A stretch of 60,961 bases of DNA, from assembly GCA_032718475.1 (NCBI GenBank), contig JAUCBJ010002088.1, positions 1 to 60,961 of the forward strand. The letters run 5' to 3'. A program made the position numbers and the translations under genes. Shown here in pieces: positions 1-60,961 of this stretch. Each line of letters starts with the position of its first letter. Within the stretch, counting starts at the first letter, position 1. Source of the DNA: Nemertoderma westbladi (taxonomy: Eukaryota; Animalia; Xenacoelomorpha). The notes under the pieces were generated by a model. The model was not told the DNA's origin, did not search any database, and saw nothing but the letters and a program-made list of their open reading frames with translations.

Positions 1-799
1 TAGTTGGTGGCCACGTTGTCAGCATATACAGTATACAGTGGTTGGTTGGTTGGTTGCGTGAATAGGAAATAACTATGGAAATGTTCGTATTCGTGTAGCC
101 GGAAACGTGGCGGATTGGTAGGTTGCTCGGTTGAATGGATTGGTGACAGCCGTGGTAGAGTTGGCGATCGAATCGATATAATAGGGTAGTGTGGGGCTAG
201 CCACACGATGAGAGGTTTGGGTACGTGAAGATGAATATGCTATGGTTGGTTGATGCAACGACACGAACCAATACGCGCGGGTGGTAACAGCTGTAGGAGT
301 AAGGAGGGCATCGTGAGGTTAGGCTACGCGTAGGTGATAGGCAGCGATTGGTTGAATGCAACGACGCGAATCAATATTGATGGTGACAGATGGTCATTAA
401 ACACCTCGATTTAGCACCGGAATTTGGCATTTTTTAATTGCCTCCGAGATGTGGCCCGTAGCCCAGGCTAGGGAGGAGTGAGTGGAGGGCTATGCTTCTC
501 CTACTACTTATATATATATATAATATATATTAAGTCCATTCAAAACAAGGTTTTTCTATGGTTCCAATTCCTTTTCTTTTGTTTTCACTTTCGATGCCTT
601 TTCTTCTTCTCTCCACCTTCATTACAACTGTGAAATAAATTATATATTATGTTATATACTGTTATATACTTACTATATTAACATGTTAAATATATTAACA
701 AAATTAACGAACAAATATGGCAAATGCAAATCAAACATTAAATGTCAATCATTATCTAATACATAAACCTTTCACATCATAAACTCTCATTTTTTACAG

Positions 800-6904: not shown

Positions 6905-7445
6905 TGTTAGCTTATTCAATCCCGCCAACACCCCATAAAGTTATAAGCCGATAAGCAATATTGGGAGCCACGAGATTGGGCAATTAACCAACTCGTGCCA
7001 TCCCAATAAGAGTGGGAAGGAAGCACACAATAGAGGGTCAGGGGCCAAACCCCTAACCCAGAGAGAACAGGTGGAGTGAACGGGAATACTCCACGGGGCG
7101 CCAACAAGGGTACTAACCAATCAGAGGGGGGAAAGGCATCGATTGAGTAGCAGTAAGGCCACCGTGCAATATAACCAATAACCTATTAATCAGTGATTCA
7201 GTTATCTCAGTGTAGCAGTGCTAGCGTAGGTTAGTAGTCAATTAGTTTAGTTAGGGGATCACGGGACTTTAGTTACCGTATCCCGCCTTGTACACATTAT
7301 ATCTATATCTATATCCTATGCCCTATTATTATTATACACCGAACTTCAGAACTCAGTTACTTTATTTCACCCTTATACACGGCGGGGACGCGTGGACTAA
7401 ATTACCACATCGGATAAATCGGGATCCCTCCTGGATCCCGTCACA
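6905..7445 (+). repeat. 5' LTR (541 bp)
   Basis: TGTTAG...GTCACA. By eye only one substitution versus the 3' LTR (CTAGCGTAGG vs CTAGTGTAGG). CCAAT ~7117, TATAA ~7170, initiator-like TCAGTT ~7198. Confidence 0.97.
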
Positions 7446-7525
7446 GTAACTAAATCCGAGCTGCCGCCCCAGTTAAACTCTAAGAACTACACTGCTAGCT
7501 AGCCGAACTCCACCGACCAGACGAG

Positions 7526-10500
7526 ATGAGTGAATCGGGCGAGACACCGACGCGGACCCCGGACGAAGATCAAACGATCCGCGAGGCCGCGACCAACGGC
7601 GCGCCGATGTCGCCGGCCAGCTACCGGCCGAGGGCGACGAGCGGCCCACCGAAACGGCGACGGTGGGGCCGACGGTGCGACGCCGGACGCGAAGAGACGG
7701 AGGAGAGATCGGTACCGATGTCGCCGGCCAGCTACAGGCCGAGGGCGACGGACGGCCCACCGGAACGGCGACGGAGGAGCCGCCGGTACGACGTCGAACC
7801 CGGAGGGACGGAGGAAAAGTCGGCGAGGAGGACGTCGGGGTCTCTGAGCGACTTCGACGAGCCTACATCGCGGCCCGGAGGATGCTAAAGGATGCCAAAA
7901 AGGAAGGGGCGAAGGTAGACGAGGTGAGACTGAGAAAGCGACTAGGTGAGTCGGATAGACACTTTAATTATCTAATACGTTTTGGGCAGAGAGAACTAGC
8001 CGAAACGAGAGCACATGAGATTGCCGGGGAACTGTTTGAACTATGGGAATGTGGGAGTATGGAACCTAGCGTAGCGTCAGTGTACATAGGGCCATACTTG
8101 GTCGATGCCCGGGGAGTAAAACCGGCGGGTTGGAGGGGACTCGAAGGAGGCGAATCCGAGGTTAACCCCGAGGATTCGGCCTCGTCGGTCGGAGAAAGCT
8201 CCGGGAAGCGGGGGAAAGTTGGTAGGTCGGGAAGGCGGGGGAAGTCCGTCGTAACCGATAAGTCTGTTACATCCTCCGCGAAAGAAAGAGCGGTGAGGGA
8301 AATAGGTGCCGCATACCGTCTCAGCATGGCAGAGCAAGGTCATAGAGAAATGAAGGAACGGCTAGAGGAGGGGAGAGTGCGGTTAGAGAGGGAAACGGCA
8401 TTGCTTAAAGAAACCGGAGAGAGGGCCGAAAGGGCTTTGAAAAGCCTAAGGGAGTATGATGAGATAGAGGAAAGGGAGTGTAGGGAGCGTGAGGCGAGAG
8501 AGGAAAGGGAACGCAAGGAGCGTGAGGCGGAACGCAAGGAGCGTGAGGCAAGGGAGGAAAAGGAACGCAAGGAGCGCGAAGTGAGACGAAGGGAGAGCAT
8601 TAAGAGTGCTGCAGAGTCGGCCATCAGGGACACCCAGGAGCGTGAGAGGAGAATGGCAGAGACTGAAAAAGAGCGCAAGGAATTAGAGAGACGGCAGAGT
8701 GAGTTTGCGGGAGATAAGATTAGACGGGCGCACGAGCTGCAACTGGTGCGAGCGTCGCCGTCTGAAAGCGGGGCCGGCTCGAGTATTTTTAGGGAGCCGG
8801 GGGCCGTAGATACATTTATTAATACCCCACTGACAGGGACCGCACGACAGACTCAAGACTGGTGCGACCGTACGGGCGGGGGGGGGGTAATAATAATAAT
8901 GGTACAGTAGACGTTGTTAATATTGATAATACCGTATGGGACAACACTAATCAAACCTTTATTACAGGGAATGCTTTACATAGTGGTAGTAATTTAAATT
9001 TAAATCAGAACGCCCCTAGTATTAATGTAGGAAATAATTCTGATATTAATGTAGCTACGCAAAATAATTCAAATAATCAAAATAATAACCCAGATTCGAA
9101 TCTACAAAATAATTTAAATAACGCAATTACGCAAAATAATTCGAATAATTTAAATAATGACCTATGCCCGAATTTACAAAATAATTCAGATAACGTAGTC
9201 GTGCAGAATAATACAAATAATTTTGTTCCAAACGAGCAAAATAATTCCGTTTCCAATATGGGTGCTATTAATGTAAACACGTCGGGCCTACATAACCAGG
9301 GAGCAGAGGGCCTGGTAGGCCACGTAGTTAGTAGACAGGGAGCAGAGGACCTGGTAGGCCACGTAGTTAGTAGACAGGGAGCAGAGGGCCTGGTAGGCCA
9401 CGTAGTTGGTAGGCAGGGAGTAGAGGGCCTGGTAGGCCACGCAATAGCAGAGGGAGAGGCGGGGGTGAATGGACCCGACCGCAGTAGGGTTGATGTGTCG
9501 ACTAGAGAGGTATATAATAGCGGGGAGAGAGGTAGCGAAGTTAGATGTAGCGAGTGGGGGGGGGCTACGAGGACCCCACAACAGAGAGTTAGCGGCGAGA
9601 GGGGGGGGGGGGCAGGGAGTGTCCCACAGCCGTCAGCGGATAATGCAAGGGCCGAAATAGGTAAACCGCAACGACCGGCGACGGAAAGTAATAGAGGGAT
9701 CGCGAGTATCCCCAGCGGCGTGCGACCGAGCAGAGAGAGACAGGTTGACGTCGCGAGAGGGCGGACGAAGCGTCGGGCCCGATCAGAGGAGGGAAGAAGA
9801 ACAGTGGGGTTTAACCGGGAGGTCGACGAGAGATCTCGCGAGCGGGAATATTCCACTGATAGGAGAAGAAATGAAGACAGTAGTAGAAGTATCGCCGCGA
9901 ACGATAGAAGAACGAGGACGGATAGCGAGCCGTCGATAGTCGAGATGAGAACGGAGAGTCAGTGGGGTCGGACTCCGGGAGATTGCCGTCGCCCCGGAGG
10001 GACGCGACCCGGCGAGGCGCACTACGCGCCGAGAGAGGGGTACGCGATGTACCGGTACGAAGATGAGAGCAGTAGAGAGGGGGGTCGAAGGGAAACTTTC
10101 CGACGGGATATACCTACCGGTCGAGAATACGGTAGCCGCGGGGAGGATTATTCGAGAAGAATAAACTTCGATCCCGAGCAATACATGCAGACTGTAGGGC
10201 ATACTGTAGGTCTTACTGCACATACCGTAGGCCATACTGAGAGAGGCAATGTAGGCGATAGGATAGCGTGGACAACGGGATTAAACCCGGAAGTCGCGGA
10301 ATACATACCGGCGAGTAGGTCAGAAGCTGATAGGCCTATACCGGTACCAGCACAGCAGTATGACTACAGCATGCAGGGACATAACATATACCCAGGGGAG
10401 GGGGGAATTATTGCGGATAGGTGCATGGGCCCCAACATATTAACATCAACCCCATTACCAAACATACCGGTGGGGGGGGGGACAGGGTGACATTCCCCCA

Positions 10501-11826
10501 TCACAATGTCAACAATATACCCCGATGGTAGCAAGAATGGCGAGACCCCTGGACGAAAACAGATCGTGTGACACAGATATATGGAGGGGGCCGCTACCCC
10601 CAATGACATACCCAAGCCAGAGAAAGTCAAGAAGTAGGACAGACGGAACGCACCAGACAAGGGAAACTATACAGCACCCGTCGAATCCATTGGAAGCGCA
10701 GGCGATAGGGATGGCCACGTTGATCGATGCTTTGAAAACGAGGATCGAGTTACCACCCGTGGAACCATTCAAGTTCGACGGGAGTAGGCCGGAAGAATAT
10801 TTACAGTTTCGGCGAATGTATAGTAACGAAATACTAACAAAAAACTTGACGCAGGCGGAGTGCCTAAAGTATCTACAAGTATACACGGGAGGCCCAGCAT
10901 ACGACATCGTGAGGCAATATCAAGGAATAGAGGGCGGCTTCACGACAGCATGGCGGGCACTGGATAGGGAATACGGGCACCCGGCCAAGATCATCAGGCA
11001 GACGCTGAGAGGCATAACATCGGGTGGCCTACAGGACAACCCCGTTAGCATTAAGACGTTTGCTAACAAAGTCGAAAAGGCGCTAATCGTGCTGAAGACG
11101 CTAGACGCGCCGTACGAGCTCAACGCGTCCAATAACATCACCACGATAGCGCAGGCACTACCAAACTGGCTGCGCAACAAGTGGAGGAAGATCGCTTTCT
11201 CCACTCGAGACAAGAAGGGTGCGGAACCAGGTTTAGAAGAAATGTCAAACTTCTTAAATTACGAGGCTGAACTAATAACGGACCCAGTCTATAGTGAAGA
11301 TAGCCTGGGAAAGGGACCAAAGACGGATCACTACAGGCCGAAACCAGAGCACAATACATCAAACGCATTGCCGAGGCTCAGGCAATCATTGCCATACGCA
11401 GCGATGCAGGGGACTGCAAGTCCACAGGCAAACGAAGATAAGACAACATCATGGAACGGACAGGGGAACAATAACAACATGAATAAACATAACCCCAGTA
11501 CGTCCAGTAGGCCAAATCCAGTCAATAAGAATAGTAGGGACTTTGGTACGAATATAACTGCGATACGCAATGCATTGTATAAAGAGGGCTACGACCCAAA
11601 GAGCAAATGCCAGTTACACGCAAATGCGCTTCATAAAACCATGAACTGCAGGTACTGGCAGGCGCTACCGAGGCAAGACCAGATAGATTACGCGTCGAGC
11701 AATAAAATCTGCTCGCGATGTGTGAAGAGTGGACACAAGGCCAGGGAATGCCAAGAGAAGCCGGTCAAGTTTGGCCAAAGGAGAGGCCAAACGATGGCAA
11801 CGAGCACGGTAGGGGCGAAGAAGTGA
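7526..11826 (+). pseudogene. gag: BEL gag, very long, split by a 145-bp deletion and frame changes at G runs
   Basis: Pieces 7526, 7663-8910, 8862-10490, 10525-11826. Coiled coil, Asn-rich tract, 39-bp repeats, Pao gag core FDGSRPEEYLQF, Cys-His motifs CQLHANALHKTMNC and CSRCVKSGHKAREC. Frame changes at G runs near 8900 and 10475. Confidence 0.85.
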
Positions 11827-14800
11827 GGCACGGTGTTACTTGGAGTAGTACCGGTGCGAGTGATCGGGGAAGGCAATCGATCAGTAACAACACTAATGCT
11901 GGTTGATAGTGGAGCTGCCTTCACATTAGTCGAGGAATGGGTAGCCGAAGAAATAGGATTGAGAACAAGGCCAAGCAGGATGGCGGTAACAACCATCTCT
12001 AGCAAAGATGAGATCCTAGAGATGAGGACAGGACGGTGCGCAATTGCAGCAGTGGCACCAGGATGCGATTATGGGGCAACCATCGACCCCATCCAAGTAA
12101 TAGAGTCAATTAACATCAATGCCAGGCGGCCAACCAACATCGAGGTCGAGCAATACAAATTCCTGGACAACATTGACTTCTCGATCCCAGACGTGGACGT
12201 TAGGAAGGTATCCATCATAGTAGGAATGGACTGCCCGACGGCCCACGAAAGAATGCAAACGGTCTTCGGCGAAGACAAGCAGAGTGACCCGGTGGCTATA
12301 TTAACACCATTCGGGTGGACGCTGAGTGGTCCAATTAAGAGCAAGATACCATTCAGGATGTCGGAGACATCAGGATGCATGTTCGCGGGAACAATGCAGG
12401 AAATGGGTGATGAGGGAGCAGAGGAGCAGCTTAAAAGACTGCTCAGACAAGACTTCGAGGGACTGAAAGAGACCGGGGTCGGGACCTCGGTAGAAGACAA
12501 ACAGGGTCTACAAAGCGTGGAGGAATCGATGACGTGTGATGAGGGGCGGTATACAATAGGAATGGTATGGAAACTACCGAAGATACCGCTACCCGATAAT
12601 AGAGGGATGGTACTCACGAGACTTCGTAAGCTGAAACAAACACTAAAACGGAGCCCCGAGAAGAACGAGTACATTCACAAAACAATTAAGAAGTACGTTG
12701 AGAAGGGATGGGCCGTGGAGTTACCGGTCGACGAGCCGAACACGGACAGGACATACTACCTGCCACTCCACGTAGCATTAGACCCAAAGAAAGGTAAACT
12801 TAGGATGGTAGTCGATGCATCGGCAAAGACCGACGGAAAGTGCTTAAACGACTACCTACTAGAAGGCCCAAACATATACAATTCGGGCATAGAAGTACTA
12901 CTTAGATTTAGGAATGGGAAACACGCCTTCACGTGCGACATAGAAGGCATGTTCAACCAAGTCCGTGTAACAGAGGAAGACAGCGACAGTCAACGCTTCT
13001 TATGGTATAACGGCGAGGAAGAACCGCCTATAATACCGGCATATAAGATGGTAGTACAAAACATGGGGGCCAAGTCGTCCTCATTTACGACGACTATGGC
13101 AGTAAGAGACACGGTAAAGGGGAAGGAAGATAGATATAGCAGTAGGGCCGTCGATATGATCCGACGCGGCTTCTACGTAGACGACGGTATGGAGTCTGGA
13201 AATACGGTTGAGGAGATACTGGAAACAGGGCGCGAGGTTCGCGACATCCTGAAAGGATCCGGCTTCAACCTGACCAAATTCCAATCCAGTTCAGAAGAAT
13301 TTATCAAGGCAATAGAGGACAAGAAACCGGAATCGACCATGGACAACCCTACAACAGCCAAAGGACAGGACATGGCGAATAAGAGAACACAATCTCAGCA
13401 AAAGGCGTTGGGAATCGTGTGGGATAGAGGAACAGACGAACTGAAGTATCAGCTGAGCCAGGAGGGCGCAGACACCCATACGAAGAGGGGTTATGTATCG
13501 TATATAGCAAGGATATACGATCCCCTAGGCCTAGCATCCCCATTACTAGTCACGGGGAAACAGATACTCAAGAGAGTATATAAATTGAAGGATGAGTGGG
13601 ACGTAGAGGTACCAGAGGACATCAAGAAACAGTGGAGCAAATGGACAGGAGACTTGGAGAGGATGGGAACATACAACATGCCGCGAGTGTATTTTCCGGA
13701 CGGGAACATGACGAATCTGGACCTACATATGTTCTCCGACGCGTCGTTAGAGGCATACGGAGCGGCACTCTATTTGGTACAACGAGAGGGGGCTCACAAG
13801 CCCAGACTAGCCTTTAGCAAAGCTAAGTCAACGCCGCCAGACTCAGCATCTGTTCCCAAGTTAGAATTGACAGCTGCGAGACTAGGAGTTAGAGCCACAG
13901 CCTACCTAGTGGATACTATTCCCAACATAGTGGAGACACACTATTGGACGGACTCCATGGTAGTGCTTGGTTGGCTACACAACGAAAGGACGAGATACCC
14001 GATATTCGTCGCGAATAGAGTGGACGAAATAAGGGCGAGCACAGCATTGGAAAGGTGGCACTACTGCCCAACGGACGAGAACCCAGCGGACTTGCTGTCG
14101 AGGGGCGTGGAACGCCACACTTTCCTGAAGAAGGAAGCATTGTGGCAACATGGGCCACAATTTCTGAGCGTTAAAGAAGCCTGGCCGCCAATGAGAAAGG
14201 TGGAGCCGGGCTCAGAAGTGGTGTCAGAGGGAGAAGAGGGAGACTCAGAGGGAGAAGAGATATACTCCCAGATGGTGAGGGAGATTAGGGACGTGCAACC
14301 AAAGCAAGAACTACGCGATAACCCGACGGACAAACTCCTCAGCTACAGTTCTAGTTGGTACAAGACCAAGAAATTAGTGGTGTACTGGAGAGCTTTCGGG
14401 AATTTCCTCGCGGGAGTTAATAAGGAGAAGAAAACCAGGGAAACCATAGATCTGGAAGGAGCGGCCAAGGCAATAATCCGCTATGAACAACGAAAGAACT
14501 ACGGCGACGAGGTGGAACGCGTCGGTAACCAACAGCACCTCCGACGGGACAGCGAGTTGATTACGCTGTCGCCACAACTCAACGACGATGGGATTCTAGT
14601 AATGAATTCTAGGGTGGGATATAACAACAGCATAGTCGTGCCACCGAAACCCATCATCATTCCCACAGGATCGCCTATAGTCCACCAGATCATATGGGAC
14701 TCCCACAAATCGATATTGCATGGGGGCACCAACCTAACCCTCACAGAGATAAGAAGGACCTATTGGGTCAAACAATTAAGGAAGAAGGTTAAAGCGGTAG

Positions 14801-15813
14801 TGGGGCAGTGCCAGACCTGCCGACGGGCGAAGAAGGAACGAGCCATACAGGAGATGGCGCCACTACCGGCGAGTAGGGTAAGACAGCACGACCCGCCATT
14901 TACGCATTGCGGTGTGGACATGTTCGGGCCGATAAAGATCAAGGTGATGCGACACACGGAGAAACGCTACGGTATTATCTTCGTATGCAACAATACGCGG
15001 GCGGTAGGGATAGAACTCGCCCAAGATGCAACCGCATCAGCATTCATTAACGCCTTAGAAAGGTTTAGGGACCGCAAAGGTGGGACGATCGCAGTGATAT
15101 ACAGCGACAACGGCACCAACTTTGTGGGCGCAGAGAGGGAGATGGCAGAGGCCTTGGACATCTTGGAGGGAGAAGAAGTCAGGGCAGCCATGAGGAGACG
15201 ACAAGTAAAGTGGGAGAGAAGGACGCCGTATGCACCACATACACTAGGATGCGTCGAGAGACTGGTGGGCAGTTCAAAGCGTCTAATGACGAAGTTAATG
15301 AACACCCACATGGTCACTGAGGACGTTTTACGGACAGTACTTGCGAAGTGCGAGGGGATCATTAATAGCAGACCGCTATATCCGGAGAATGATGACCCTG
15401 AGTCGTTAGACGTGTTGACGCCTAGCCATTTTCTGATGGAAAGGCCAGCGACCATCGATATGCGGGGTGTAGACCCAGATGACATACACTCCCGCCAAAG
15501 TTGGAAAGTCGCTAAAGCGATAAGCGCAGAGTATTGGAGGAGGTGGGTAGAAGAATACCTACCCACGCTCCATAAGCGAAGCAAGTGGAAGAAACCGAAT
15601 CGGGAGTTAAAAGTAGGAGATCTCGTAATCGTTACGGATGATACTATCATCAACAACCAGTGGCGGTTGGCGAGAGTTGTAGGCACCTACTCCGACGAGG
15701 ACGGAAGAGTCCGATCGGTAGAAGTGCGGATAGGTGGAAAGATAGGTGCGAAAGACAGAAAAACCTACAGGAGAGCAGTAGGTAAATGCTGTCTTCTAGA
15801 AGGGGCACCTTAA
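11827..15813 (+). CDS. pol: BEL/Pao pol polyprotein (protease, RT, RNase H, integrase), uninterrupted
   Basis: LVDSGA; YVDD; FSDAS...ELTAA...TDS; HKSILHGG...CQTC; DMFG, SDNG, ERLV. Same frame as gag, separated by one TGA. Confidence 0.97.
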   Translation, partial: GTVLLGVVPVRVIGEGNRSVTTLMLVDSGAAFTLVEEWVAEEIGLRTRPSRMAVTTISSKDEILEMRTGRCAIAAVAPGCDYGATIDPIQVIESININARRPTNIEVEQYKFLDNIDFSIPDVDVRKVSIIVGMDCPTAHERMQTVFGEDKQSDPVAILTPFGWTLSGPIKSKIPFRMSETSGCMFAGTMQEMGDEGAEEQLKRLLRQDFEGLKETGVGTSVEDKQGLQSVEESMTCDEGRYTIGMVWKLPKIPLPDNRGMVLTRLRKLKQTLKRSPEKNEYIHKTIKKYVEKGWAVELPVDEPNTDRTYYLPLHVALDPKKGKLRMVVDASAKTDGKCLNDYLLEGPNIYNSGIEVLLRFRNGKHAFTCDIEGMFNQVRVTEEDSDSQRFLWYNGEEEPPIIPAYKMVVQNMGAKSSSFTTTMAVRDTVKGKEDRYSSRAVDMIRRGFYVDDGMESGNTVEEILETGREVRDILKGSGFNLTKFQSSSEEFIKAIEDKKPESTMDNPTTAKGQDMANKRTQSQQKALGIVWDRGTDELKYQLSQEGADTHTKRGYVSYIARIYDPLGLASPLLVTGKQILKRVYKLKDEWDVEVPEDIKKQWSKWTGDLERMGTYNMPRVYFPDGNMTNLDLHMFSDASLEAYGAALYLVQREGAHKPRLAFSKAKSTPPDSASVPKLELTAARLGVRATAYLVDTIPNIVETHYWTDSMVVLGWLHNERTRYPIFVANRVDEIRASTALERWHYCPTDENPADLLSRGVERHTFLKKEALWQHGPQFLSVKEAWPPMRKVEPGSEVVSEGEEGDSEGEEIYSQMVREIRDVQPKQELRDNPTDKLLSYSSSWYKTKKLVVYWRAFGNFLAGVNKEKKTRETIDLEGAAKAIIRYEQRKNYGDEVERVGNQQHLRRDSELITLSPQLNDDGILVMNSRVGYNNSIVVPPKPIIIPTGSPIVHQIIWDSHKSILHGGTNLTLTEIRRTYWVKQLRKKVKAVVGQCQTCRRAKKERAIQEMAPLPASRVRQHDPPFTHCGVDMFGPIKIKVMRHTEKRYGIIFVCNNTRAVGIELAQDATASAFINALERFRDRKGGTIAVIYSDNGTNFVGAEREMAEALDILEGEEVRAAMRRRQVKWERRTPYAPHTLGCVERLVGSSKRLMTKLMNTHMVTEDVLRTVLAKCEGIINSRPLYPENDDPESLDVLTPSHFLMERPATIDMRGVDPDDIHSRQSWKVAKAISAEYWRRWVEEYLPTLHKRSKWKKPNRELKVGDLVIVTDDTIINNQWRLARVVGTYSDEDGRVRSVEVRIGGKIGAKDRKTYRRAVGKCCLLEGAP

Positions 15814-15924: not shown

Positions 15925-16640
15925 GTTAGTTAGTTAGTAAGTATGTAGTACCTAGAGTTAGTTAGTTAGTTAGTAGGTACGTAGTGCCTAGAGTTAGAGA
16001 GTTAGTAGGTACGTAGTACCTAGAGTTAGTTAGTTAGTAGGTACGTAGTGCCTAGAGTTAGAGAGTTAATAGGTACGTAGTACCTAGTTAGAGTTAGAGA
16101 GTTAGTAGGTACGTAGTACCTAGTTAGAGTTAGAGTTAGAGGGTACGTAGTACCGATAGTTAGAGAGTTAATAGGTACGTAGTACCTAGTTAGAGTTAGA
16201 GTTAGAGGGTACGTAGTACCAATAGTTAGTTAGAGTTAGTAGGTACGTAGTACCTAGTTAGAGTTAGAGTTAGTAGGTACGTAGTACCTAGTTAGAGTTA
16301 GAGTTAGAGGGTACGTAGTACCAATAGTTAGTTAGAGTTAGTAGGTACGTAGTACCTAGTTAGAGTTAGAGTTAGTAGGTACGTAGTACCTAGTTAGAGT
16401 TAGAGTTAGAGGGTACGTAGTACCGATAGTTAGAGAGTTAGAGGGTACGTAGTACCGTTAGTTAGAGTTAGAGTTAGAGGGTACGTAGTACCAATAGTTA
16501 GTTAGAGTTAGTAGGTACGTAGTACCTAGTTAGAGTTAGAGTTAGTAGGTACGTAGTACCTAGTTAGAGTTAGAGTTAGTAGGTACGTAGTACCTAGTTA
16601 GAGTTAGAGTTAGGGGGTACGTAGTACCATTAGTTAGAGA
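15925..16640 (+). repeat. Array of ~21 GGTAC-GTA-GTACC hairpin units separated by TTAG/TTAGAG repeats
   Basis: The core TAGGTACGTAGTACCTA is a 7-bp inverted repeat with a 3-nt loop, recurring every ~30-37 bp. Confidence 0.95.
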
Positions 16641-17135: not shown

Positions 17136-19670
17136 ATGGCGAGTAAGCTGATCAGGAAGAGAAAGGCGGAGTCAGGAGGAAAAGAAATATTGGTGGATTT
17201 CACCGAAAGACACCCGGAAGAGAAGACGAGAGGATACTACGAGAGGTTGGAAAGGGGTCACGCGGCACGAGCGCTGCAGGATCACTTCCGGGAGGCGCAC
17301 GAACAGCAGTTGGTCGGGACCTACGGGACCCCGTCGCTGGACAACGCGATCTTCCAACACTTCCACTACGTGGTGAAAGGGGACGAGGCGAAGTTCGGGA
17401 TTCCGAAGTATCCGAGGGAATCACCGAGGAAGGACTGGAAAAGATTCATAGAGTCCGTCAACAGGGGAGGATATATGATCCTAGATGACGAGGGAACCGT
17501 GGAAGACGAAGCGGGTTCGAGACGAGGAACGGCAGGGTCGGCCAGGACCATACTCCTACATTTGGCCGCGCCAAATGGGGACATCTTCTTATTCGATCTA
17601 GGGACGTATGGGAAGAAGGACGGGCCGAAATTAGACCGGTTACCGAAAGCGGTACAAGTCTTGGTAAGAGAGAAGTCGACGACGAAAGTGGGATCGGCGA
17701 TTCGCGAGGATGCGGAAAGGATCATCGGTCCGGACGCCACCAACCTCCTGGATATGCAGAAGGTCTTTATGGCTATGACGGCACCGGATGGGTTGGGGCT
17801 AGTCGAAAACACAGGTCTATGCGGGGCAGTGGCGATGGGCCAACTATTGGGGCTCGTATGTCACAAACCGATGGACTGGGGGAAGTTTAGGGAAGAATAC
17901 GGAGCAGAACTAGCGAACTCGCTGAAGTGGGGAGCGAGACCGGGAAAGCAGGAGGTATATCAGTTTCGCAGAGGAGCGATAAAGGTATATCAGAAGCGAT
18001 ATATCCTGCAGGAGGACTGGATGATGATAAGTTTGCTTAACTTATTCATGACCGTAGTTATCGAAAGGGAACCAGGGGCATTTCTGTTATCGGGATCACC
18101 CCTAAGCTACAGGAGAGCCTTTAAGACGGCCTTTGATGGTCTGGTAGACCACCCGGGGCTGAAGGGCGAGTCGGTGTACTACAACAGCCGACATCTGGTA
18201 GACGGGGAGACAGATACACCGTATCAGAGATGGGAGCAGCTAGAGGCGGACAGACGAGAAGCAAAGCGACTGGAAGAAGTCGCTAGACGGGAGAGGATAG
18301 AAGCAGAGGAGAGGGAAGAGGAGGCCAGGGCACAGAGTTACGGCTTGGAGGAACAGGTGGGCCTAGACGAACTTCATTGGACTTCGTCAGGGAGTTCGGG
18401 GGAGTCTCTAGGGCAAGAATTGGGATGGACGGTGGGATCGCCGAAACAGTCGACGTCGGGGTTGCAAACGATGCCCATACCAGCGGGCGCCGAGGGCGAC
18501 CAACCGCCAAGGAAGTTAAGGGAGCTAGAGGGATGGAGAGCTACGGGCGAGAGTCAAGGCGGGAAGGGACATAGTGGATCCATCGGGATACCGGGATTGG
18601 AGACACTACCAGAAGAGGAGGACGGCGACGACGAGTTCGGAGAGATGCCGCCCATCGAGAGGATAGGCCACTCGGACACGGACTGGGTTGGCGGAAGGGT
18701 GGTGACAGCCAGTGGGGCGAGGGCCTTCTGGAACAGATCCGGCAAGCGGACCTGGGTGCACGAGGAGCCAGCGATGGATTTCGCGGGGAGCACCATCAGG
18801 TTGGGCGAGCAACCGGGAACGGCACCACGGATAGTATTCGGGGAGACGATGCCCGAGAGGGGCGGAGAGATCGACGTAAACAGGGAGAGCAACGTAGAGA
18901 AGTTCGCCTACCAGCGACTCCATAGACCGCGGAGATCGCTTGGGACGAAAGACGAGGTGGGACGGGAGACATTGGTACTCGGCTGCGACTACTGTGGGAG
19001 ACAGACCCATCAGGAAAGCAGCTGCCTATACCGGTTCCAACGGGGAACCTTTTGTCTCTACTGTAGAGAACCAAGCCACAGGATGGGGGCGTGTCCACGG
19101 TTGCATAACCGATGTCCAAAGTGCCACTTTCGGGGACACTACGGGCGCGAGTGCGACTGGATGAGCGACGAGGAGAAGTTCACAAGATTCGAGGAGTGGG
19201 CCGACGTCGGGGCCATGACGCGCCAGCGCATGAAGGCCCAAGAGTTCAAGTGGGGTTTCTTCCTCATAAACCAGGAGACCCACATGGAAATCATAAAGCG
19301 AAGGTTACCGTTTACCTATCAAGAGGTAGCAACGGCGGCATCGTTCGCCGGAGTTATGAACACGCAACGGTACCTGGACAGGTGGACACCAGAGAACCGG
19401 AGGGAGTTTAGGGATTTCTTGGCGGAACACGTACCAAAGGCAATGAAAATGATCCTATGGGACGCCACACGAGGGAGACAACCAGGCCATTCTGAGGGGC
19501 CACCGGCGAAGCGGTATCGGGCATTAATAACACCAGCGCCCAAGGAGCCAACGACCGGGATCAGCAAGGAAGTGGCGGCGAAGGTCCGGAAGCAGAAAGC
19601 GGATGATGCCAGAGGAACGGTGATAACCAAGAAACGGGCCAGGGAAGAGGACGTGAGGAGGAACAGATAA
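17136..19670 (+). CDS. Accessory ORF3, 844 aa: WRN/RNase D-like (DEDDy) 3'-5' exonuclease domain, acidic linker, three CCHC zinc knuckles
   Basis: ILDDEG (ExoI), LLHLAAPNGDIFLFDL, LPKAVQVLVREKSTTKVGSAIREDAERI (ExoII), LLDMQ, YQKRYILQED (ExoIII-like); knuckles CDYCGRQTHQESSC, CLYCREPSHRMGAC, CPKCHFRGHYGREC. Confidence 0.75.
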   Translation: MASKLIRKRKAESGGKEILVDFTERHPEEKTRGYYERLERGHAARALQDHFREAHEQQLVGTYGTPSLDNAIFQHFHYVVKGDEAKFGIPKYPRESPRKDWKRFIESVNRGGYMILDDEGTVEDEAGSRRGTAGSARTILLHLAAPNGDIFLFDLGTYGKKDGPKLDRLPKAVQVLVREKSTTKVGSAIREDAERIIGPDATNLLDMQKVFMAMTAPDGLGLVENTGLCGAVAMGQLLGLVCHKPMDWGKFREEYGAELANSLKWGARPGKQEVYQFRRGAIKVYQKRYILQEDWMMISLLNLFMTVVIEREPGAFLLSGSPLSYRRAFKTAFDGLVDHPGLKGESVYYNSRHLVDGETDTPYQRWEQLEADRREAKRLEEVARRERIEAEEREEEARAQSYGLEEQVGLDELHWTSSGSSGESLGQELGWTVGSPKQSTSGLQTMPIPAGAEGDQPPRKLRELEGWRATGESQGGKGHSGSIGIPGLETLPEEEDGDDEFGEMPPIERIGHSDTDWVGGRVVTASGARAFWNRSGKRTWVHEEPAMDFAGSTIRLGEQPGTAPRIVFGETMPERGGEIDVNRESNVEKFAYQRLHRPRRSLGTKDEVGRETLVLGCDYCGRQTHQESSCLYRFQRGTFCLYCREPSHRMGACPRLHNRCPKCHFRGHYGRECDWMSDEEKFTRFEEWADVGAMTRQRMKAQEFKWGFFLINQETHMEIIKRRLPFTYQEVATAASFAGVMNTQRYLDRWTPENRREFRDFLAEHVPKAMKMILWDATRGRQPGHSEGPPAKRYRALITPAPKEPTTGISKEVAAKVRKQKADDARGTVITKKRAREEDVRRNR

Positions 19671-20343
19671 GTTCCCAGATACGAGGGAGTGAGACTGAGA
19701 CTGGGACGTGGTGCGCCTGGAAGGCGCCGCATGCAACGTACGAACCATTAAGTACAAATTTAATTAATGCAAATAATCATATAAGTGCAATTCGTATGTA
19801 CGTATGTAGTAATTAGCAGTAAAATACACGATCGGAGTAAGTACTATAGTCATACAACCTTTCTCAACTAGCTAGTGGGACTGGGGGATAACTGACTATG
19901 GCACTATGGACGAGACAACTGACAATTTCACACCTCTTGAGTGCGACGGCACGAGAGGGGGGGGGAGATTCGTCAGAAGGGAAGAGACAGACGAAGTGAG
20001 GTTGAGGGACGGAATAATAGTGCGGAGTGCGGAGAGAGTGCCGATGCAGTTCCAGTGTGGGGGGGGGGGGGGGGGAGAATAAGAGGCTGAGTAAGGGACG
20101 AGGAGGTCCAAATGTGAGAGAGTTAGGGTGAGAGTGAAGGTGAGATAGGGCGAAAATGTTGGGGAAACAAAAGTTGCGTGGGAGGTGAGCGCGATCGGCC
20201 CGACATGAGACGCCAGGCACACAGGGTAGCGTTATCATACCCATAGGGGGCGGCCTGGAAAGCCGGCTCCTAGAGAAAAGAATTCCACCCCACACCCGAT
20301 ACTAGATCGGGATCCAGCGGGATTGTAACGCACTTTTAGGTTG

Positions 20344-20381
20344 ATGCTATCTTCTTACCGGGAAGATAGCATGGGGGGGAG
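20344..20381 (+). other. Polypurine tract preceded by an 11-bp perfect hairpin
   Basis: ATGCTATCTTC-TTACCGG-GAAGATAGCAT, then GGGGGGGAG abutting the 3' LTR. Confidence 0.85.
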
Positions 20382-20922
20382 TGTTAGCTTATTCAATCCC
20401 GCCAACACCCCATAAAGTTATAAGCCGATAAGCAATATTGGGAGCCACGAGATTGGGCAATTAACCAACTCGTGCCATCCCAATAAGAGTGGGAAGGAAG
20501 CACACAATAGAGGGTCAGGGGCCAAACCCCTAACCCAGAGAGAACAGGTGGAGTGAACGGGAATACTCCACGGGGCGCCAACAAGGGTACTAACCAATCA
20601 GAGGGGGGAAAGGCATCGATTGAGTAGCAGTAAGGCCACCGTGCAATATAACCAATAACCTATTAATCAGTGATTCAGTTATCTCAGTGTAGCAGTGCTA
20701 GTGTAGGTTAGTAGTCAATTAGTTTAGTTAGGGGATCACGGGACTTTAGTTACCGTATCCCGCCTTGTACACATTATATCTATATCTATATCCTATGCCC
20801 TATTATTATTATACACCGAACTTCAGAACTCAGTTACTTTATTTCACCCTTATACACGGCGGGGACGCGTGGACTAAATTACCACATCGGATAAATCGGG
20901 ATCCCTCCTGGATCCCGTCACA
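20382..20922 (+). repeat. 3' LTR (541 bp)
   Basis: Near-identical to 6905-7445; followed by CTATT. Confidence 0.97.
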
Positions 20923-25584: not shown

Positions 25585-26495
25585 TCATGTTATTGCGACA
25601 CTCTGCTTCGGTTTTGTTCCATTGGCGATAGTCAAGGTCTGGCTAGTGCATAAGGTGTGCTTAGTAGGAGCAATGGGCAATAGTTCCATGGTCATTGAAC
25701 AATACATTTTGCTGCGTATGTTCAATTTATAATATCCATCTTTTCCGTGGATGACTCAAGCTTGGCTTTCATTTTGATCTCGCCATTCAATAGACTATGT
25801 ATTCTTCCTGGTGACAAAGACTTAAAATGCACTGGAAAGCCATTATCAGTGGCCGAACCAAAAGTCAGAGCACTATGCGGATTATTCACTTCGGCAGAAG
25901 TGCCGGTAGTATGCATCCAGGGTGTGTTGATGACATCCTCAAATCGATGTGCACTTTCCACCACCTGGCAATCGTTTCCATTACAGAATACCCATAAATA
26001 AGGCATCATCCCCAAGTGATTGTCACAATGCATCCTAAAAGTTCCTATAGTTGGTAAAGTGCAGTGAGCTTCAGCACTAGTGCCATCATTCTCCATTCTG
26101 CACACCTTCTTGGTACCTCTAATATTGGCAGTGACATCAATGTGCGCCCTGGCTTTCTCCAAGTTCATCACTTCATACTCCCACACGTATTTGCTCGCGG
26201 CTGCTGAGCCGCTGAGCTTGATACAAGTGCACAAAGGTCGTTCACCAAAGAGTCCACAGCCATTCCCCCACCCTCGGGATACCACTCCATTGTGACAAAC
26301 ATCGTGTTCCCTTGGCTTACAATCGGGTGGTGTGCCTCTGGGACACCCCCAATCACTTGTGATCTTGTGGCCTAGTTGGATAGGGTAAACCCTCGAAAAA
26401 GCCCATCCACCATTCATTTCTGCGTCATGGCCGGCTATGTAGAAATTTCTCTTAGGATCAGTCACACGCAGAAACTTGCATTCATCCCCACGCAA
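25585..26495 (-). pseudogene. Endogenous flavivirus-like envelope (E) glycoprotein fragment
   Basis: SRGWGNGCGLFG fusion loop with flanking E cysteines (GCP, VCH, LCTC). After a frameshift near 25740 it continues as SKMYCSMTMELLPIAPTKHTLCT, resembling the domain I/III junction. Confidence 0.9.
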
Positions 26496-27206
26496 ATATA
26501 TTCATAAATTCTTAGCCATAATTCAATAATTAAAATTTGAATAAATCATTACTGCGAGATCAACAAAATTTTTACAAACAAAGTCTATCTATAAGAAGTC
26601 TCAAATAAATGTAATATATTTCAGGCTGAGTGGCATTTCTTCATCAGACATTTACAGTAACAATAACATCCTTTAGCCAAATCAAACAAATAATATAGTA
26701 AACCCTTACATATTTATTTCCTCAAGTAAATTTTGCAAAAAGATGTCAAGCCACACAATTATGTGGATTAAATCTTTTTTGCAAAATTATTTGTGGTTTA
26801 ACACTCTTTGACTATTCACAAATCCAAACTGTGGCTTAACTTTCTTGTATTTTTAAGGCATAACACACTTTGCATAACACTGTCCATATAAAATTTCAAT
26901 AGACTCAACTGTTGGAAATTTGGTAATAAAATAAGGATGACATTGTGTAGCCATAACCTCTAATGCATAGTTGCATTCTTGTATGAGCTGCTAATGAGCT
27001 GCAGCTACTGTTTGGCAGCCTCATGGAGTGAATAAGCATGGTGGACAGCCCATGACTTTCTTGAGACGCATCTTAAAGGACACTGGCCTTGAAGATGCGG
27101 ATGATCTAGGAAATGTCATGGGTGATAGGGAGTTGTGGCGGTGCAATTTTGTCGATAAGCCGGCACAGCATTCTTAAAAATCCAGCTGCAATGCAGCATG
27201 CCGATC

Positions 27207-29909: not shown

Positions 29910-30103
29910 TTACACACTCTTTAATTTGTGATTTGATTAGATCACCTTGTGTTTAACTAGTTTCACCTCTGTCTAACAATAGTTTTATTACACATATATT
30001 CATATTACATTATTATGGTATTTGGTATACACAGCGATATGTGAGAAGCTACATATACAGCTATATTATATATAACATAATAATTGATATATATTCATGA
30101 ACT

Positions 30104-31155: not shown

Positions 31156-31602
31156 CCACGATAGGGCATATATACCCACAATCAAGACTCAGCCAAAGAA
31201 AGCTCTTGGGAATCAATACATACAGCAGGGGTAAGCACCCAGCTTTCCCTACTAACTGGAGTAGATAATCACAAGAGAAAGTACCTAATATATATACTAC
31301 AAGTGATGTTCTATCATTGAGTACACACTCAATTATAAATAAACCTCTGAGTAGGTATTAATAATCTGTTGATGAATTGTTATTATGCATGGTCTAACTG
31401 TATTCGGTGTGTTTCATATCTAGTTAAGTTTAGTTTTAATGTCTATATTATTCAGACTATAGGACTTTAAATTTGTGTTATGTACTATATCACAGCTGTT
31501 ATGCGTTGAATATAAACATTATATGCATGTAAATAAACACATCTTTAAAATTTCTAACTCATACTGGTAATTCATTATCCATGTTGAAAGGTAGTCCTGT
31601 AG

Positions 31603-32435: not shown

Positions 32436-32620
32436 TAATAAATAATTTTTACTCTAAGTGCCAAGTGTTATTTGGATACTTGTACTTAAATTTCCATTTA
32501 AACGCATAATTAATTTTTTATACATTCTGAATACTTATACTTATATTATTTCATCAGTATATTACGTATTATTTGATTTGATTTATAAAGTATATTATTT
32601 CTTGATTATTTGACTATTAT

Positions 32621-57636: not shown

Positions 57637-58173
57637 TGTTAGCTTATTCAATCCCGCCAACACCCCATAAAGTTATTAGCCGATAAGCAATATTGGGAGC
57701 CACGAGATTGGGCAATTAACCAACTCGTGCCATCCCAATAAGAGTGGGAAGGAAGCACACAATAGAGGGTCAGGGGCCAAACCCCTAACCCAGAGAGAAC
57801 AGGTGGAGTGAACGGGAATACTCCACGGGGCGCCAACAAGGGTATTAACCAATCAGAGGGGGGAATGGCATCGATTGAGTAGCAGTAAGGCCACCGTGCA
57901 ATATAACCAATAACCTATTAATCAGTGATTCAGTTATCTCAGTGCAGCAGTGCTAGCGTAGGGTACAGCCAATTAGTTTAGTTAGGGGATCACGGGACTT
58001 TAGTTACCGTATCCCGCCTTGTACACATTCACAATATATCTATATCTTATAACCTCTTATTATACACCGAACTTCAGAACTCAATTATCTTTACTTCACC
58101 CTTACACACGGCGGGGACGCGTGGACTAAATACCACACCGGATAAATCGGGATCCCTCCTGGATCCCGTCACA
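57637..58173 (+). repeat. 5' LTR (537 bp) of the second BEL family 1 copy
   Basis: TGTTAG...GTCACA; first 300 bp nearly identical to 6905, central part diverged. Confidence 0.95.
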
Positions 58174-60961
58174 GTAACTAAATCCGAGCTGCCGCCCTAG
58201 TTAAACTCTAAGAACTACCGGTACAACCTAGCTAGCCGAATCATCAGCCACAAACGAGATGAGTGAATCGGGCGAGACACCGACGCGGACCCCGGACGAA
58301 GACCTAACGATCCGCGAGGCCGCGACCAAGCGATACAGGCCCACGACGCCGGAGCCATCGATAACGGGCGAACCGGAAGTCCAGGACGAGGAGGGCCTGG
58401 AACCCGAAGTCGAACCAAGAGAGAAAGAGAGCGAGATGGAGGGAGATGGAGACGAGTCGACACGAGAGGGAGAACGGCGCGCCGATGTCGCCGGCCAGCT
58501 ACCGGCCGAGGGCGACGGGCGGCCCACCGAAACGGCGACGGTGGGGCCGACGGTGCGACGCCGGACGCGAAGAGACGGAGGAGAGATCGGTACCGATGTC
58601 GCCGGCCAGCTACAGGCCGAGGGCGACGGACGGCCCACCGGAACGGCGACGGTGGAGCCGCCGGTACGACGTCGAACCCGGAGGGACGGAGGAGAGGTCG
58701 GCGACGAGGACGTCGGGGTTTCTGAGCGACTTCGACGGGCCTACAACGCGACCCGGAAGCTGATAAACGACGCCAAGAAGGAAGGGGCGAAGGTAGACGA
58801 GGTGAGACTGAGAAAGCGACTAGGTGAGTCGGATAAACACTTAAATTACCTAATACGTTTTGGGCAGAGAGAACTGGCCGGGGAGAGAGCAGAAAGGATA
58901 GCCGGCGAACTGTTTGAACTATGGGAGTGTGGGAGTATGGAACCTAGCGTAGCGCCAGTGTACATAGGGCCATACTTGGTCGATGCCCGGGGAGTGAAAC
59001 CAGTGGGTTGGAAGGGACCTGAAGAGGGCGAATCCGAGGTTAACACCGAGGATTCGGCCTCGTCGGTCGGAGAAAGCTCCGGAAAGGGGGAGAAAGTTAG
59101 TAGGTCGGGAAGGCGGGGGAAGTCCGTCGTAACCGATAAGTCTGCTACATCCTCCGCGAAAGAAAGAGCGGTGAGAAAAATAGGAGCCACATACCGTCTC
59201 AGCATGGCAGAGCAAGGTCAGAGAGAAATGAAGGAACGGCTAGAGGAGGGAAGAGTGCGGTTAGAGAGGGAAACGGTATTGCTTAGAGAAACCGGAGAAA
59301 GGGCCGAAAGGGCTTTGAAAAGCCTAAGGGAGTATGATGAGATAGAGGAAAGGGAGTGTAGGGAGCGTGAAGCGAGAGAGGAAAAGGAACGCGAGGAGCG
59401 TGAGAGCGAGAGATGGAAAAGGAACGCAAGGAGCGTGAGGCGAGAATGGAAAAGGAACGCAAGGAGCGTGAGGCGGAACGCAAGGAGCGTGAGGCGGGAA
59501 TGGAAAAGGAACGCAAGGAGCGTGAGGCGGGAAAGGAAAAGGAACGCAAGGAGCGTGAGGCGAGAAAGGAAGAGGAACGTAAAGAGCGTGGGGCGAGACG
59601 AAGGGAGAGCATTAAGAGTGCCGCAGACTCGGCCATCAAGGACACCCAGGAGCGTGAGGGGATAGTGGCAAAGAGTGAAAAGGAGCGCAAGGAATTAGAG
59701 AAACGGCAGAGTGAGTATGCGAAAAATATAATTAGAGGGACGCACGAGTTGGAATACGTGCGAGTGGGACCGCCGTCTGAAACTGGGGCCGGCTCGAGTA
59801 TTTTTGAGGAGCCGAGGGCCGTAGATGTATTTGTTAATACTCCACTGACAGGGACCGCACGACAGACTCAAGACTGGTGCGACCGTACGAGCGGGGGGGG
59901 TAATATAATAATAATGGTACAGTAGACGTTGTTGATATTAATAGTACCGTATGGGATAACGCTAATCAAACCTTTATTACAGGAAATACTTTGCCTGGTG
60001 GTAGTAATTTAAATTTAAATCAGAACAATCCCAGTGTTAATGTAGAAAATAATCCTAATATTGATGTAGTTACGCAAAATAATTCAAATAATCAAAATAA
60101 TAACTCGAATTCGGACCTACAAAATAACTTAAATAACGCAATTACACAGAATAATTCGAATAATTCAAATAATGATCTTAGCCCGAATTTACAAAATAAT
60201 TCAGATAACGTAGTCGCGCAGAATAATACAAATGATTTTGTTTCAAATGAGCAAATTAATTCCGTTTCCAATATGGGTGCTATTAGTGTAGACACGTCGG
60301 GCCTACGTAACCAGGGAGCAGAGGGCCTGGTAGGCCACGTAGTTAGTAGACAGGGAGCAGAGGGCCTGGTAGGCCACGTAGTTAGTAGACAGAGAGCAGA
60401 GGGCCTGGTAGGCCACGTAGTTGGTAGGCAGGGAGCGGAGGGCCTGGAAGGCCACGCAATAGCAGAGGGAGAGGCGGGGGTGAATAGACCCGACTGTGGT
60501 AGGGTTGATGTGTCGACTAGAGAGATATATAGTAGCGGGGCGAGAGGTAGCGAACTTAGATGTAGCGAGTGGGGGGGGGGCTACGAGCACCCCACAACAG
60601 AAAGTTAGCGGCGAGAGGGGGGGGGGCAGAGAGTGTCCCACAGCCGTCAGCGGACAATGCGAGGGCCGAACAAGGTAAACCGCAACAACCGGCGACGGAG
60701 AGTAATAGGGGGATTGCGAGTATCCCCGGCGACGTGCGATCGACCAGAGAAAGACAGGTCGACGTCGCGGGAGGGCAGACGGAGCGTCGAGCCCGATCAG
60801 AGGAGGAAAGAAGAACAGTGGGGTTTAACCGGGAGGTCGACGAGAGATCTCGTGAGCGGGAATATTCCACTGATAGGAGAAGAGAGGAAGAGAGTAGTAG
60901 AAGTATCGCCGCAAACGATAGAAGAGCGAGGACGGATAGCGAGCCGTCGGTAGTCGAGGTG
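57637..60961 (+). mobile_element. Second BEL family 1 element (5' LTR and gag start), continuing beyond the window
   Basis: LTR 57637-58173, same post-LTR sequence GTAACTAAATCCG, gag from ATG 58259 with frameshifts; expected TSD GGGTG (57632-57636). Confidence 0.93.

What the first reader, a model, noticed from the sequence alone, without database searches (positions are those of the whole stretch)
17136..19670. Young BEL/Pao retrotransposon carries an exonuclease-zinc-knuckle gene in the env position
Seen: an intact 844-aa ORF inside both LTRs, with no evident signal peptide or membrane anchor. It has ExoI/II/III-like motifs (ILDDEG, KVGSAIRED, YILQED; ~17470-18020) and three tandem CCHC knuckles (~18984-19155). 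Known: this spacing fits the WRN/RNase D DEDDy family, which includes the small-RNA factors Nibbler/MUT-7 and EXD1. From memory, DEDDy extra ORFs have been reported in some rotifer and nematode LTR elements, so capture itself has precedent; I do not recognise the fusion to triple knuckles. Inference: an element-encoded RNA-binding nuclease that counters piRNA/siRNA silencing, or that processes the element's own RNA or primer. ExoIII is atypical, so it may be a catalytically altered decoy.
Basis: partly seen in the sequence, partly recalled or inferred. Interest (0 to 1): 0.9.

Follow-up and report, generated by a model that had tools for sequence, protein, structure and literature searches.

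The report
Retrotransposon carries an RNA-trimming nuclease gene
A recently inserted BEL/Pao jumping gene carries, where a viral coat gene would normally sit, an intact third gene that selection keeps unchanged across the family's copies and that is predicted to encode an RNA end-trimming enzyme joined to three zinc knuckles, likely used to shield the element's RNA from the host's silencing and decay systems.

Summary
Observation confirmed. ORF3 (17136-19670, 844 aa) is intact and lies between 541-bp LTRs that differ at one base, in a BEL/Pao element with a 5-bp target duplication. It has three exact CCHC knuckles and no membrane segment. The family keeps it under selection: 34 of the 40 best-supported differences in public DNA contigs are synonymous (33% expected), and all 9 listed indels keep the frame. 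The N-terminal domain is very likely a DEDDy (RNase D/WRN-type) fold. A language-model search and an RNase D-guided model agree on this, but no ordinary sequence search finds a relative. The model puts D117, E119, D192 and E293 at the four metal sites, so the fourth is Glu, not Asp, and activity is open. Both halves of the idea have precedent: DEDDy ORF3s in rotifer LTR elements, and exonuclease plus CCHC fingers in trypanosome RNase D. This scan also noted Rrp6-like exonuclease-knuckle ORF3s in retrotransposons on other DNA. New here are the BEL/Pao host, the selection signal and the Glu variant. The best reading is a knuckle-fed 3' trimming nuclease that guards the element's RNA; the target is untested.

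The parts
6905..7445 (+). 5' LTR, 541 bp, TG...CA; TATAA at 7170 and an initiator-like TCAGTT at 7198
7446..7465 (+). Primer-binding-site position; does not begin with TGG; primer unknown; same trait in 6 of 6 BEL relatives with a clear LTR end
7527..11826 (+). gag region, broken in this copy (frame changes near 7590, 8880, 10470; in-frame stop 11824-11826); DUF1759 capsid part and one CCHC knuckle in the last piece
11827..15813 (+). pol, open for 1328 codons: protease, RT (YVDD), RNase H/Peptidase_A17, integrase, DUF5641
15932..16639 (+). Tandem array, 34-bp unit, about 21 copies, G/U-rich as RNA, with a 13-base near-palindrome found 20 times here and nowhere else in the window; possible cis site (inferred)
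17136..19670 (+). ORF3, 844 aa, intact, in the env position
17418..18053 (+). Predicted DEDDy-type 3'-5' exonuclease domain (aa 95-306): D117, E119, D192, Y289, and E293 at the fourth metal site with D294 beside it
18171..18845 (+). Charged stretch (aa 346-400) and low-complexity linker (aa 401-570)
18984..19154 (+). Three tandem CX2CX4HX4C zinc knuckles (aa 617-673)
20343..20381 (+). Stable RNA hairpin (z -3.85) directly before the polypurine tract
20382..20922 (+). 3' LTR, one mismatch to the 5' LTR; followed by the 5-bp target duplication
57637..60961 (+). Second copy of the family (LTR, same primer-site start, 5' part of gag), inserted in a related gag; the window ends before its ORF3

Best explanation
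ORF3 is an intact, selected accessory gene of this BEL/Pao family, predicted to encode a DEDDy-type 3'-5' exonuclease joined by a long linker to three CCHC zinc knuckles, and it likely works as a knuckle-fed RNA end-trimmer that guards the element's own RNA against host decay and silencing. Shown: the gene is inside the LTRs, is open, carries the knuckles, shares codon usage with pol and varies mostly at silent sites. Predicted: the fold, and metal ligands D117/E119/D192/E293. Inferred by analogy to trypanosome RNase D: the knuckles hold single-stranded G/U-rich RNA and feed its 3' end to the nuclease. Inferred and untested: the substrates are host-added oligo(U) tails on element RNA or small-RNA guides aimed at it, with family specificity perhaps coming from the 34-bp array just upstream of the gene.
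For: Selection: 34 of the 40 best-supported differences (of 588 listed) are synonymous, against 33% expected for transitions, p 2e-11; 9 of 9 in the exonuclease part are synonymous; all 9 listed indels are frame-neutral. Residence: synonymous codon use correlates with pol at r 0.76, and at -0.52 and -0.23 with two other elements in the window. Fold without a guide: ESM Atlas hits score 0.94-0.95 and 25 of 30 belong to a PF01612 set. Plain MAFFT places D117, E119, L140, D154, D192, D206, Q208, W265, R268 and P269 on 10 of the 18 invariant RNase D columns (3 of 500 shuffles match as many). Fold with a guide: pLDDT 68.7, pTM 0.65; all 39 Foldseek rows shown are DEDD-type, TbRND first, although the guide profile itself ranks E. 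coli RNase D first and TbRND 25th; VIA Z 10.5-8, rmsd 3.1-4.5. End registers against TbRND (58..243) and E. coli RNase D (6..168) both put D117 on the first and E293 on the fourth catalytic Asp. Analogy: TbRND is Exo plus four CCHC fingers, the fingers raise RNA binding and cleavage, and it trims U-tails (PMC7797062). Uridylation accompanies reduced L1 mobility (PMC11014359 abstract).
Against: No sequence relative was found: phmmer over 1.84 billion proteins gave 1 hit, a repeat artefact; both word-index searches gave none; Pfam, NCBIfam and PDB sequences gave none for the domain. My own profiles were weak or negative: hmmsearch no better than shuffles, hhalign E 0.017 and 0.14, glocal z 2-3, with 16 of 400 unrelated windows scoring as well. 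The unguided fold failed (pLDDT 32), and the guided one is partly circular. The fourth ligand is Glu; TbRND D230A leaves only trace activity, and TbRND's RNA-binding Asp141 lines up with Ala188 by spacing. The knuckle match to TbRND is not significant (E 0.34), and the linker is about 310 aa against 28. The link of uridylation to mobility comes from a non-LTR element. No evidence here bears on the substrate.
Confidence: 0.4

Rival explanations
1. ORF3 is a weak or dead nuclease used as an RNA-binding adaptor or decoy, like Egalitarian or EXD1. It binds element RNA and carries, packages or hides it, for example for delivery to the germline in place of an env function.
For: The fourth ligand is Glu. 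Egalitarian, including its complex with the I-factor retrotransposon localisation signal, and EXD1 are among the fold matches. PMC5408684 calls EXD1 and Maelstrom inactive RNA-binding DEDD derivatives. There is a long linker, a charged stretch and a basic tail.
Against: D117, E119, D192 and Y289 are all kept, with an acid at the fourth site and a spare Asp next to it. The fold matches tie with active enzymes.
Confidence: 0.25
2. ORF3 is a replication aid. It trims the reverse-transcription primer or the 3' ends of cDNA intermediates inside the particle, or proofreads for RT, with the knuckles acting as a second nucleocapsid.
For: The primer-binding site lacks TGG. Only one CCHC knuckle was found in the gag C-terminal piece. 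PMC5408684 suggests an auxiliary replication role. DNA-polymerase proofreading domains tie at the top of the VIA list.
Against: 6 of 6 BEL relatives with a clear LTR end also lack TGG, and 0 of 26 relatives with at least 900 bp downstream of pol show an exonuclease ORF, so the odd primer site works without it. Self-priming was no better than chance (38 of 100 shuffles).
Confidence: 0.22
3. The N-terminal domain is not a DEDDy nuclease; the motifs are chance and the model was forced by the guide alignment.
For: All sequence searches were blank, and the unguided fold failed.
Against: The ESM result used no alignment (shuffled proteins reach 0.95 about once in 100). The motifs come in the right order and spacing. 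The model placed E293 at ExoIII although the guide alignment had put F277-A281 there, and it ranks eukaryotic enzymes above the guide family.
Confidence: 0.08
4. ORF3 is a passenger: a host gene captured by this copy and not yet decayed.
For: No contig spans pol and ORF3 together, and no relative outside this family carries it.
Against: More than 3,400 contigs per run lie on ORF3 in two samples, about 800 of them under 90% alike; differences are mostly silent and indels keep the frame. It has no intron, and its codon use matches pol.
Confidence: 0.05

Closest known systems
DEDDy ORF3 of bdelloid rotifer LTR retrotransposons Juno and Vesta, and Athena/Terminon elements (PMC5408684)
   Same: A DEDDy-like exonuclease ORF downstream of pol in the env position, with no membrane segment, an altered acidic motif and untested activity.
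   Different: The host here is BEL/Pao, which that paper does not cover. The motif change is at the fourth site (there DEDD becomes DEED). ORF3 here adds three CCHC knuckles; the five 'knuckle' mentions I saw there concern gag and pol. [quoted passage not shown]
Trypanosoma brucei RNase D, TbRND (PDB 7C42-7C4C; PMC7797062)
   Same: An N-terminal DEDD exonuclease plus tandem C-terminal CCHC fingers; top Foldseek match of the model and a weak sequence match of the knuckles.
   Different: TbRND is a cellular mitochondrial enzyme of about 350 aa with four fingers, a 28-aa linker and Asp at all three Asp sites. ORF3 has three knuckles, a linker of about 310 aa and Glu at the fourth site. No significant sequence similarity, so this is a working model, not shown orthology.
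Nibbler/MUT-7, EXD2, WRN, EXD1, Egalitarian exonuclease domains
   Same: Same fold class (VIA Z 8.4-9.6). A KxG-type ExoII together with WxxRP before ExoIII resembles MUT-7/Nibbler (recalled, from no call).
   Different: No HEAT-like NTD, MUT7-C, helicase or LOTUS part was detected; 11-20% identity in structural alignments; the rows tie, so the donor subfamily is unresolved.
Rrp6-like exonuclease(-HRDC)-CCHC ORF3s noted by this scan in other genomes (e1-9570289, e1-7470661; unchecked AI notes)
   Same: An exonuclease plus zinc knuckle as third ORF of LTR elements.
   Different: One note names a gypsy-type host, and both call the enzyme Rrp6-like. Here no HRDC was detected, Rrp6 ranks low in the fold searches, and the look-up by sequence found no look-alike.
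VANC anti-silencing proteins of Arabidopsis VANDAL transposons (PMC6719617)
   Same: An accessory protein that may act on its own family through a tandem motif inside the element (analogy only).
   Different: Plant DNA transposons, acting on DNA methylation; unrelated protein.

Membership tests
BEL/Pao LTR retrotransposon | TG...CA LTR pair, 5-bp target duplication, polypurine tract | tested here: met
BEL/Pao LTR retrotransposon | DUF1759 gag, then PR-RT-RNase H (Peptidase_A17)-IN-DUF5641 | tested here: met
   (E 1.8e-11, 3.2e-40, 3.5e-24); 120 listed homologs all carry PF05380
BEL/Pao LTR retrotransposon | Continuous gag-pol frame | tested here: not met
   This copy has three frame changes and one stop in gag; mutation, assembly error in G runs or recoding cannot be told apart
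BEL/Pao LTR retrotransposon | tRNA primer-binding site | tested here: inconclusive
   No TGG start; shared by 6 of 6 relatives; host tRNA set not available
DEDDy (RNase D/WRN) 3'-5' exonuclease | ExoI DxE on the first strand and ExoII Asp | tested here: met
   D117, E119, D192 align with invariant RNase D columns; the model has a strand at aa 113-122
DEDDy (RNase D/WRN) 3'-5' exonuclease | ExoIII YxxxD | tested here: not met
   Y289-x3-E293 with D294 next; end registers put E293 on TbRND D230 and EcRND D155, assuming no gap in the last 13 residues
DEDDy (RNase D/WRN) 3'-5' exonuclease | DnaQ-like fold | tested here: met
   ESM features, unguided; guided model and fold searches, partly circular; unguided AlphaFold failed
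DEDDy (RNase D/WRN) 3'-5' exonuclease | PF01612 match above cut-off | tested here: not met
   No match at E up to 10
DEDDy (RNase D/WRN) 3'-5' exonuclease | Metal-dependent 3'-5' activity | not testable with these tools
   needs an assay
Rotifer Juno/Vesta DEDDy ORF3 | Exonuclease ORF downstream of pol inside the LTRs, no TM segment | tested here: met
Rotifer Juno/Vesta DEDDy ORF3 | DEED motif | tested here: not met
   Third ligand is D192
Rotifer Juno/Vesta DEDDy ORF3 | Groups with the rotifer retroelement DEDDy clade | not testable with these tools
   no tool returned those sequences
Trypanosome RND (TbRND) | Exo domain plus tandem C-terminal CCHC fingers | tested here: met
Trypanosome RND (TbRND) | Four fingers, short linker, Asp141 four residues before the ExoII Asp | tested here: not met
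   Three knuckles, linker about 310 aa, Ala188 at that spacing
Trypanosome RND (TbRND) | Significant sequence similarity | tested here: inconclusive
   E 0.34 for the knuckles, no hit for the Exo part
Retroviral-type env | Signal peptide and transmembrane anchor | tested here: not met
   Best hydropathy window 1.3; basic N-terminus

The most novel reading that the evidence does not exclude
ORF3 is an animal transposon-encoded anti-silencing enzyme: a TbRND-like eraser that binds the element's own 34-base G/U-rich array through its knuckles and strips oligo(U) tails from element RNA, or destroys piRNA/siRNA guides bound near it. That would give family-specific escape from the small-RNA system, using a Glu-for-Asp active site. 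A 2019 review (PMC6719617) knew of no transposon-encoded factor against the piRNA pathway.
Probability: 0.15. Interest if true: 0.9.

Novelty: new variant of a known kind. Interest (0 to 1): 0.57.

Why it matters
Enzyme-coding third genes in LTR retrotransposons are in print only for rotifer elements in my six searches, and their use is unknown. This case extends them to BEL/Pao and shows that the family pays to keep one, which the rotifer study could not show. It supplies one intact, expressible protein with a solved look-alike (TbRND) and a clear assay. If it acts on U-tails or small RNAs, it answers the open question of whether animal transposons encode their own counter to RNA silencing.

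Tried and rejected
No whole genome is held, so copies could not be counted or aligned. Homolog searches were blank: whole ORF3 and aa 70-345 in the 5.8-billion set, lengths 464-1477 only; 1.84 billion representatives, 1 repeat artefact; metagenome, viral and prokaryote contigs; plasmids and phages; Pfam, NCBIfam and PDB sequences for the exonuclease part. Single-sequence AlphaFold failed. I tried to collect EXD2/WRN-like bacterial proteins as a closer guide; the 40 short proteins fetched were short RNase D-like, and no profile scored ORF3 above shuffles in hmmsearch. Self-priming from the LTR was at chance level. No tRNA or Rfam family was found in the element. The ORF3 knuckles as a copy of the element's own gag knuckle: only a 26-residue match, E 0.032 pairwise. 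Expression: no RNA holder was listed. Run X5 (RNA by guess, another organism label, low depth, unrelated loose ends) was not used. One contig of run X6 ends at 18721 in 23 letters that I recall as a cDNA template-switch adaptor; a single contig from a run listed as DNA by guess is no evidence. A search for the effect of Asp-to-Glu at this site found no paper with the term. The Terminon paper is not held. No supplements were read; the rotifer paper's alignments and the TbRND supplement could bear on motif and linker comparisons. Depth figures were not used as copy numbers.
Full report
Observation. The ORF at 17136-19670 is open for 844 codons. In 100,000 shuffles, 2 gave one knuckle and none gave two or more. 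There is no hydrophobic segment (best window 1.3).

The element. LTRs lie at 6905-7445 and 20382-20922 and differ at 1 of 541 bases. They are flanked by a 5-bp duplication, and an empty copy of the target lies near 2610. Pfam gives DUF1759, Peptidase_A17, integrase and DUF5641, the BEL/Pao signature. pol is open for 1328 codons with YVDD. Its nearest database relatives are only 32-38% identical; the named ones come from fish, sea urchins, anemones, a barnacle and flukes, so the lineage is isolated. The host is probably an aquatic invertebrate (inference). gag is broken in this copy, with three frame changes and one stop. A second copy starts at 57637, but the window ends before its ORF3. Between pol and ORF3 lies a 34-bp array of about 21 copies; its 13-base core occurs 20 times there and nowhere else in the window.

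Is ORF3 a maintained part of the family? No genome is held, so I laid public contigs on it. In runs X2 and X3, 3,436 and 3,404 contigs lie on ORF3, 768 and 807 of them under 90% alike, and they cover 30 of 30 bins (four runs, three samples). Of the 40 best-supported differences shown, out of 588, 34 are synonymous; transitions at random would give 33% (p 2e-11). Nine of the 40 lie in the exonuclease part, and all nine are silent. The same count for pol, on the 15 rows shown, is 9 of 15. All 9 listed indels in ORF3 are a 3-base loss or +1/-1 pairs a few bases apart. Two loose ends from diverged copies read, by eye, as the same start with a similar N-terminus. Codon use of ORF3 follows pol (r 0.76) and not the other elements of the window. 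Limits: the tool chose the rows, no catalytic codon is among them, and no contig spans pol and ORF3. Among 80 BEL/Pao loci from metagenomes, 26 had at least 900 bp after pol. I scanned 17 of their plus-strand ORFs: six were the gag of a following element and none matched an exonuclease; tblastn found no ORF3 relative in any locus.

What is the N-terminal domain? Sequence searches are blank, and single-sequence AlphaFold failed. The ESM Atlas, which needs no alignment, gave scores of 0.94-0.95, with 25 of 30 hits in a 3'-5' exonuclease set (PF01612 on 50% of the members of the cluster shown). I fetched bacterial RNase D domains. MAFFT put ORF3 residues on 10 of 18 invariant columns in order. 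A glocal profile test gave z 2.0-3.0, depending on gap costs; at the middle setting 3 of 500 shuffles matched as many invariant columns, and 16 of 400 unrelated protein windows scored as high. hmmsearch did not beat shuffles, and hhalign gave E 0.017 and 0.14. Folding aa 95-306 with 21 RNase D rows as a guide gave pLDDT 68.7 and pTM 0.65. Foldseek ranked TbRND, Egalitarian and EXD2 first, with E. coli RNase D 36th; VIA gave Z 10.5-8 for 19 chains, all DEDD-type, tied at the top. This is partly circular. Two things argue against a forced result. The guide profile alone ranks E. coli RNase D first and TbRND 25th. And the model placed ExoIII at Y289-E293, although the alignment had offered F277-A281. 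The aligned ranges 58..243 (TbRND; D80, D230 from PMC7797062) and 6..168 (E. coli RNase D; D28, D155) both map D117 to the first and E293 to the fourth Asp, if the ends are ungapped. I put the fold at about 90%. The site is D-E-D-E with a spare Asp at 294, and activity is open.

The C-terminal part. It matches multi-knuckle RNA-binding proteins only as leads (ESM 0.78-0.87; PDB E 0.025-4.6, including retroviral nucleocapsids, TbRND and LIN-28). About 310 residues, charged and then low in complexity, separate it from the nuclease.

Mechanism. The solved protein with this layout is TbRND. Its CCHC fingers bind U-rich RNA and greatly raise cleavage by the Exo domain, and it trims guide-RNA U-tails (PMC7797062: passages and Discussion). 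By analogy, ORF3 would hold an RNA with its knuckles and trim the 3' end. A selfish element keeps such a gene only if it helps the element. A review (PMC6719617, passages) argues that transposon anti-silencing must be narrow, and notes that plant VANC proteins gain specificity from tandem motifs in their own element. That makes the array before ORF3 a candidate cis site; this is speculation. I rank protection of element RNA from tailing or small-RNA silencing first (0.40), a weak or dead RNA adaptor second (0.25), and a replication aid third (0.22). The odd primer site does not favour the third: of 24 loci with a long direct repeat, 6 had a clear LTR end, and 6 of 6 lack TGG; self-priming was at chance level.

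Known versus new. DEDDy ORF3s are described in rotifer Juno and Vesta elements and in Terminons (PMC5408684: passages and section 3.4; PMC6431247 and PMC5718144: passages). A DEDDy domain also occurs inside some Dada transposases (PMC3706591: passages). PMC7998251, PMC12859917 and bioRxiv 2023.12.20.572533 were seen as passages and PMC11014359 as abstract and outline; no supplement was read. Six literature searches listed no BEL/Pao element with an exonuclease ORF and no retrotransposon exonuclease-knuckle fusion; the library lacks most subscription papers and Repbase. This scan has two unchecked notes on Rrp6-like exonuclease and knuckle ORF3s in other genomes, and none similar in sequence. 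The subfamily motif comparisons with MUT-7, WRN and EXD2 are recalled and come from no call.

Verdict. The feature is real and maintained by selection. It is a new variant of a known kind: a rotifer-style enzymatic ORF3, here in BEL/Pao, with a TbRND-style architecture and a changed fourth ligand. Interest 0.57; 0.9 if it proves to be an anti-silencing nuclease (probability 0.15).

Noticed in passing
window 45067-45756 (+) and its duplicate 54071-54760: A second BEL/Pao family has a 214-aa ORF about 1 kb after its pol end with a weak GDSL/SGNH lipase match (E 0.007-0.008, below cut-off). If real, both enzyme types of rotifer ORF3 (DEDDy and GDSL) occur on BEL/Pao elements in one window. No LTR pair was defined for it.
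   Followed up: partly
window 25725-26501 (-): A lone ORF piece matching the flavivirus envelope glycoprotein family (PF00869, E 2e-10): a likely endogenous viral fragment.
   Followed up: partly
window 28493-33463 (+): RT, RNase H, a zinc knuckle and tyrosine-recombinase pieces in several frames: a DIRS/Ngaro-like retroelement.
   Followed up: partly
window 36175-40288: Inverted repeats (166 and 130 nt) around two ORFs of 322 and 366 aa on the minus strand with no clear Pfam family: a probable DNA transposon.
   Followed up: no
window 7527-11826, 58259-60961, 56401-57636: gag frame changes fall in G runs at matching places in different copies; near 8880 two copies about 90% alike share the same frame offset despite different run lengths. 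Recoding, unstable runs or assembly error are all open.
   Followed up: partly
window 40273-46776 and 49277-55776: A 6.5-kb segment duplicated at 99.6% identity, holding the broken second BEL/Pao family.
   Followed up: no
L017, L029, L038, L046, L055, L063: BEL/Pao relatives from metagenomes all lack a TGG-type primer-binding site after the 5' LTR; how this clade primes reverse transcription is unexplained.
   Followed up: partly
window 9297-9441: 39-bp tandem repeat (3.7 copies) inside gag, shared with the second copy at 60268-60495.
   Followed up: no
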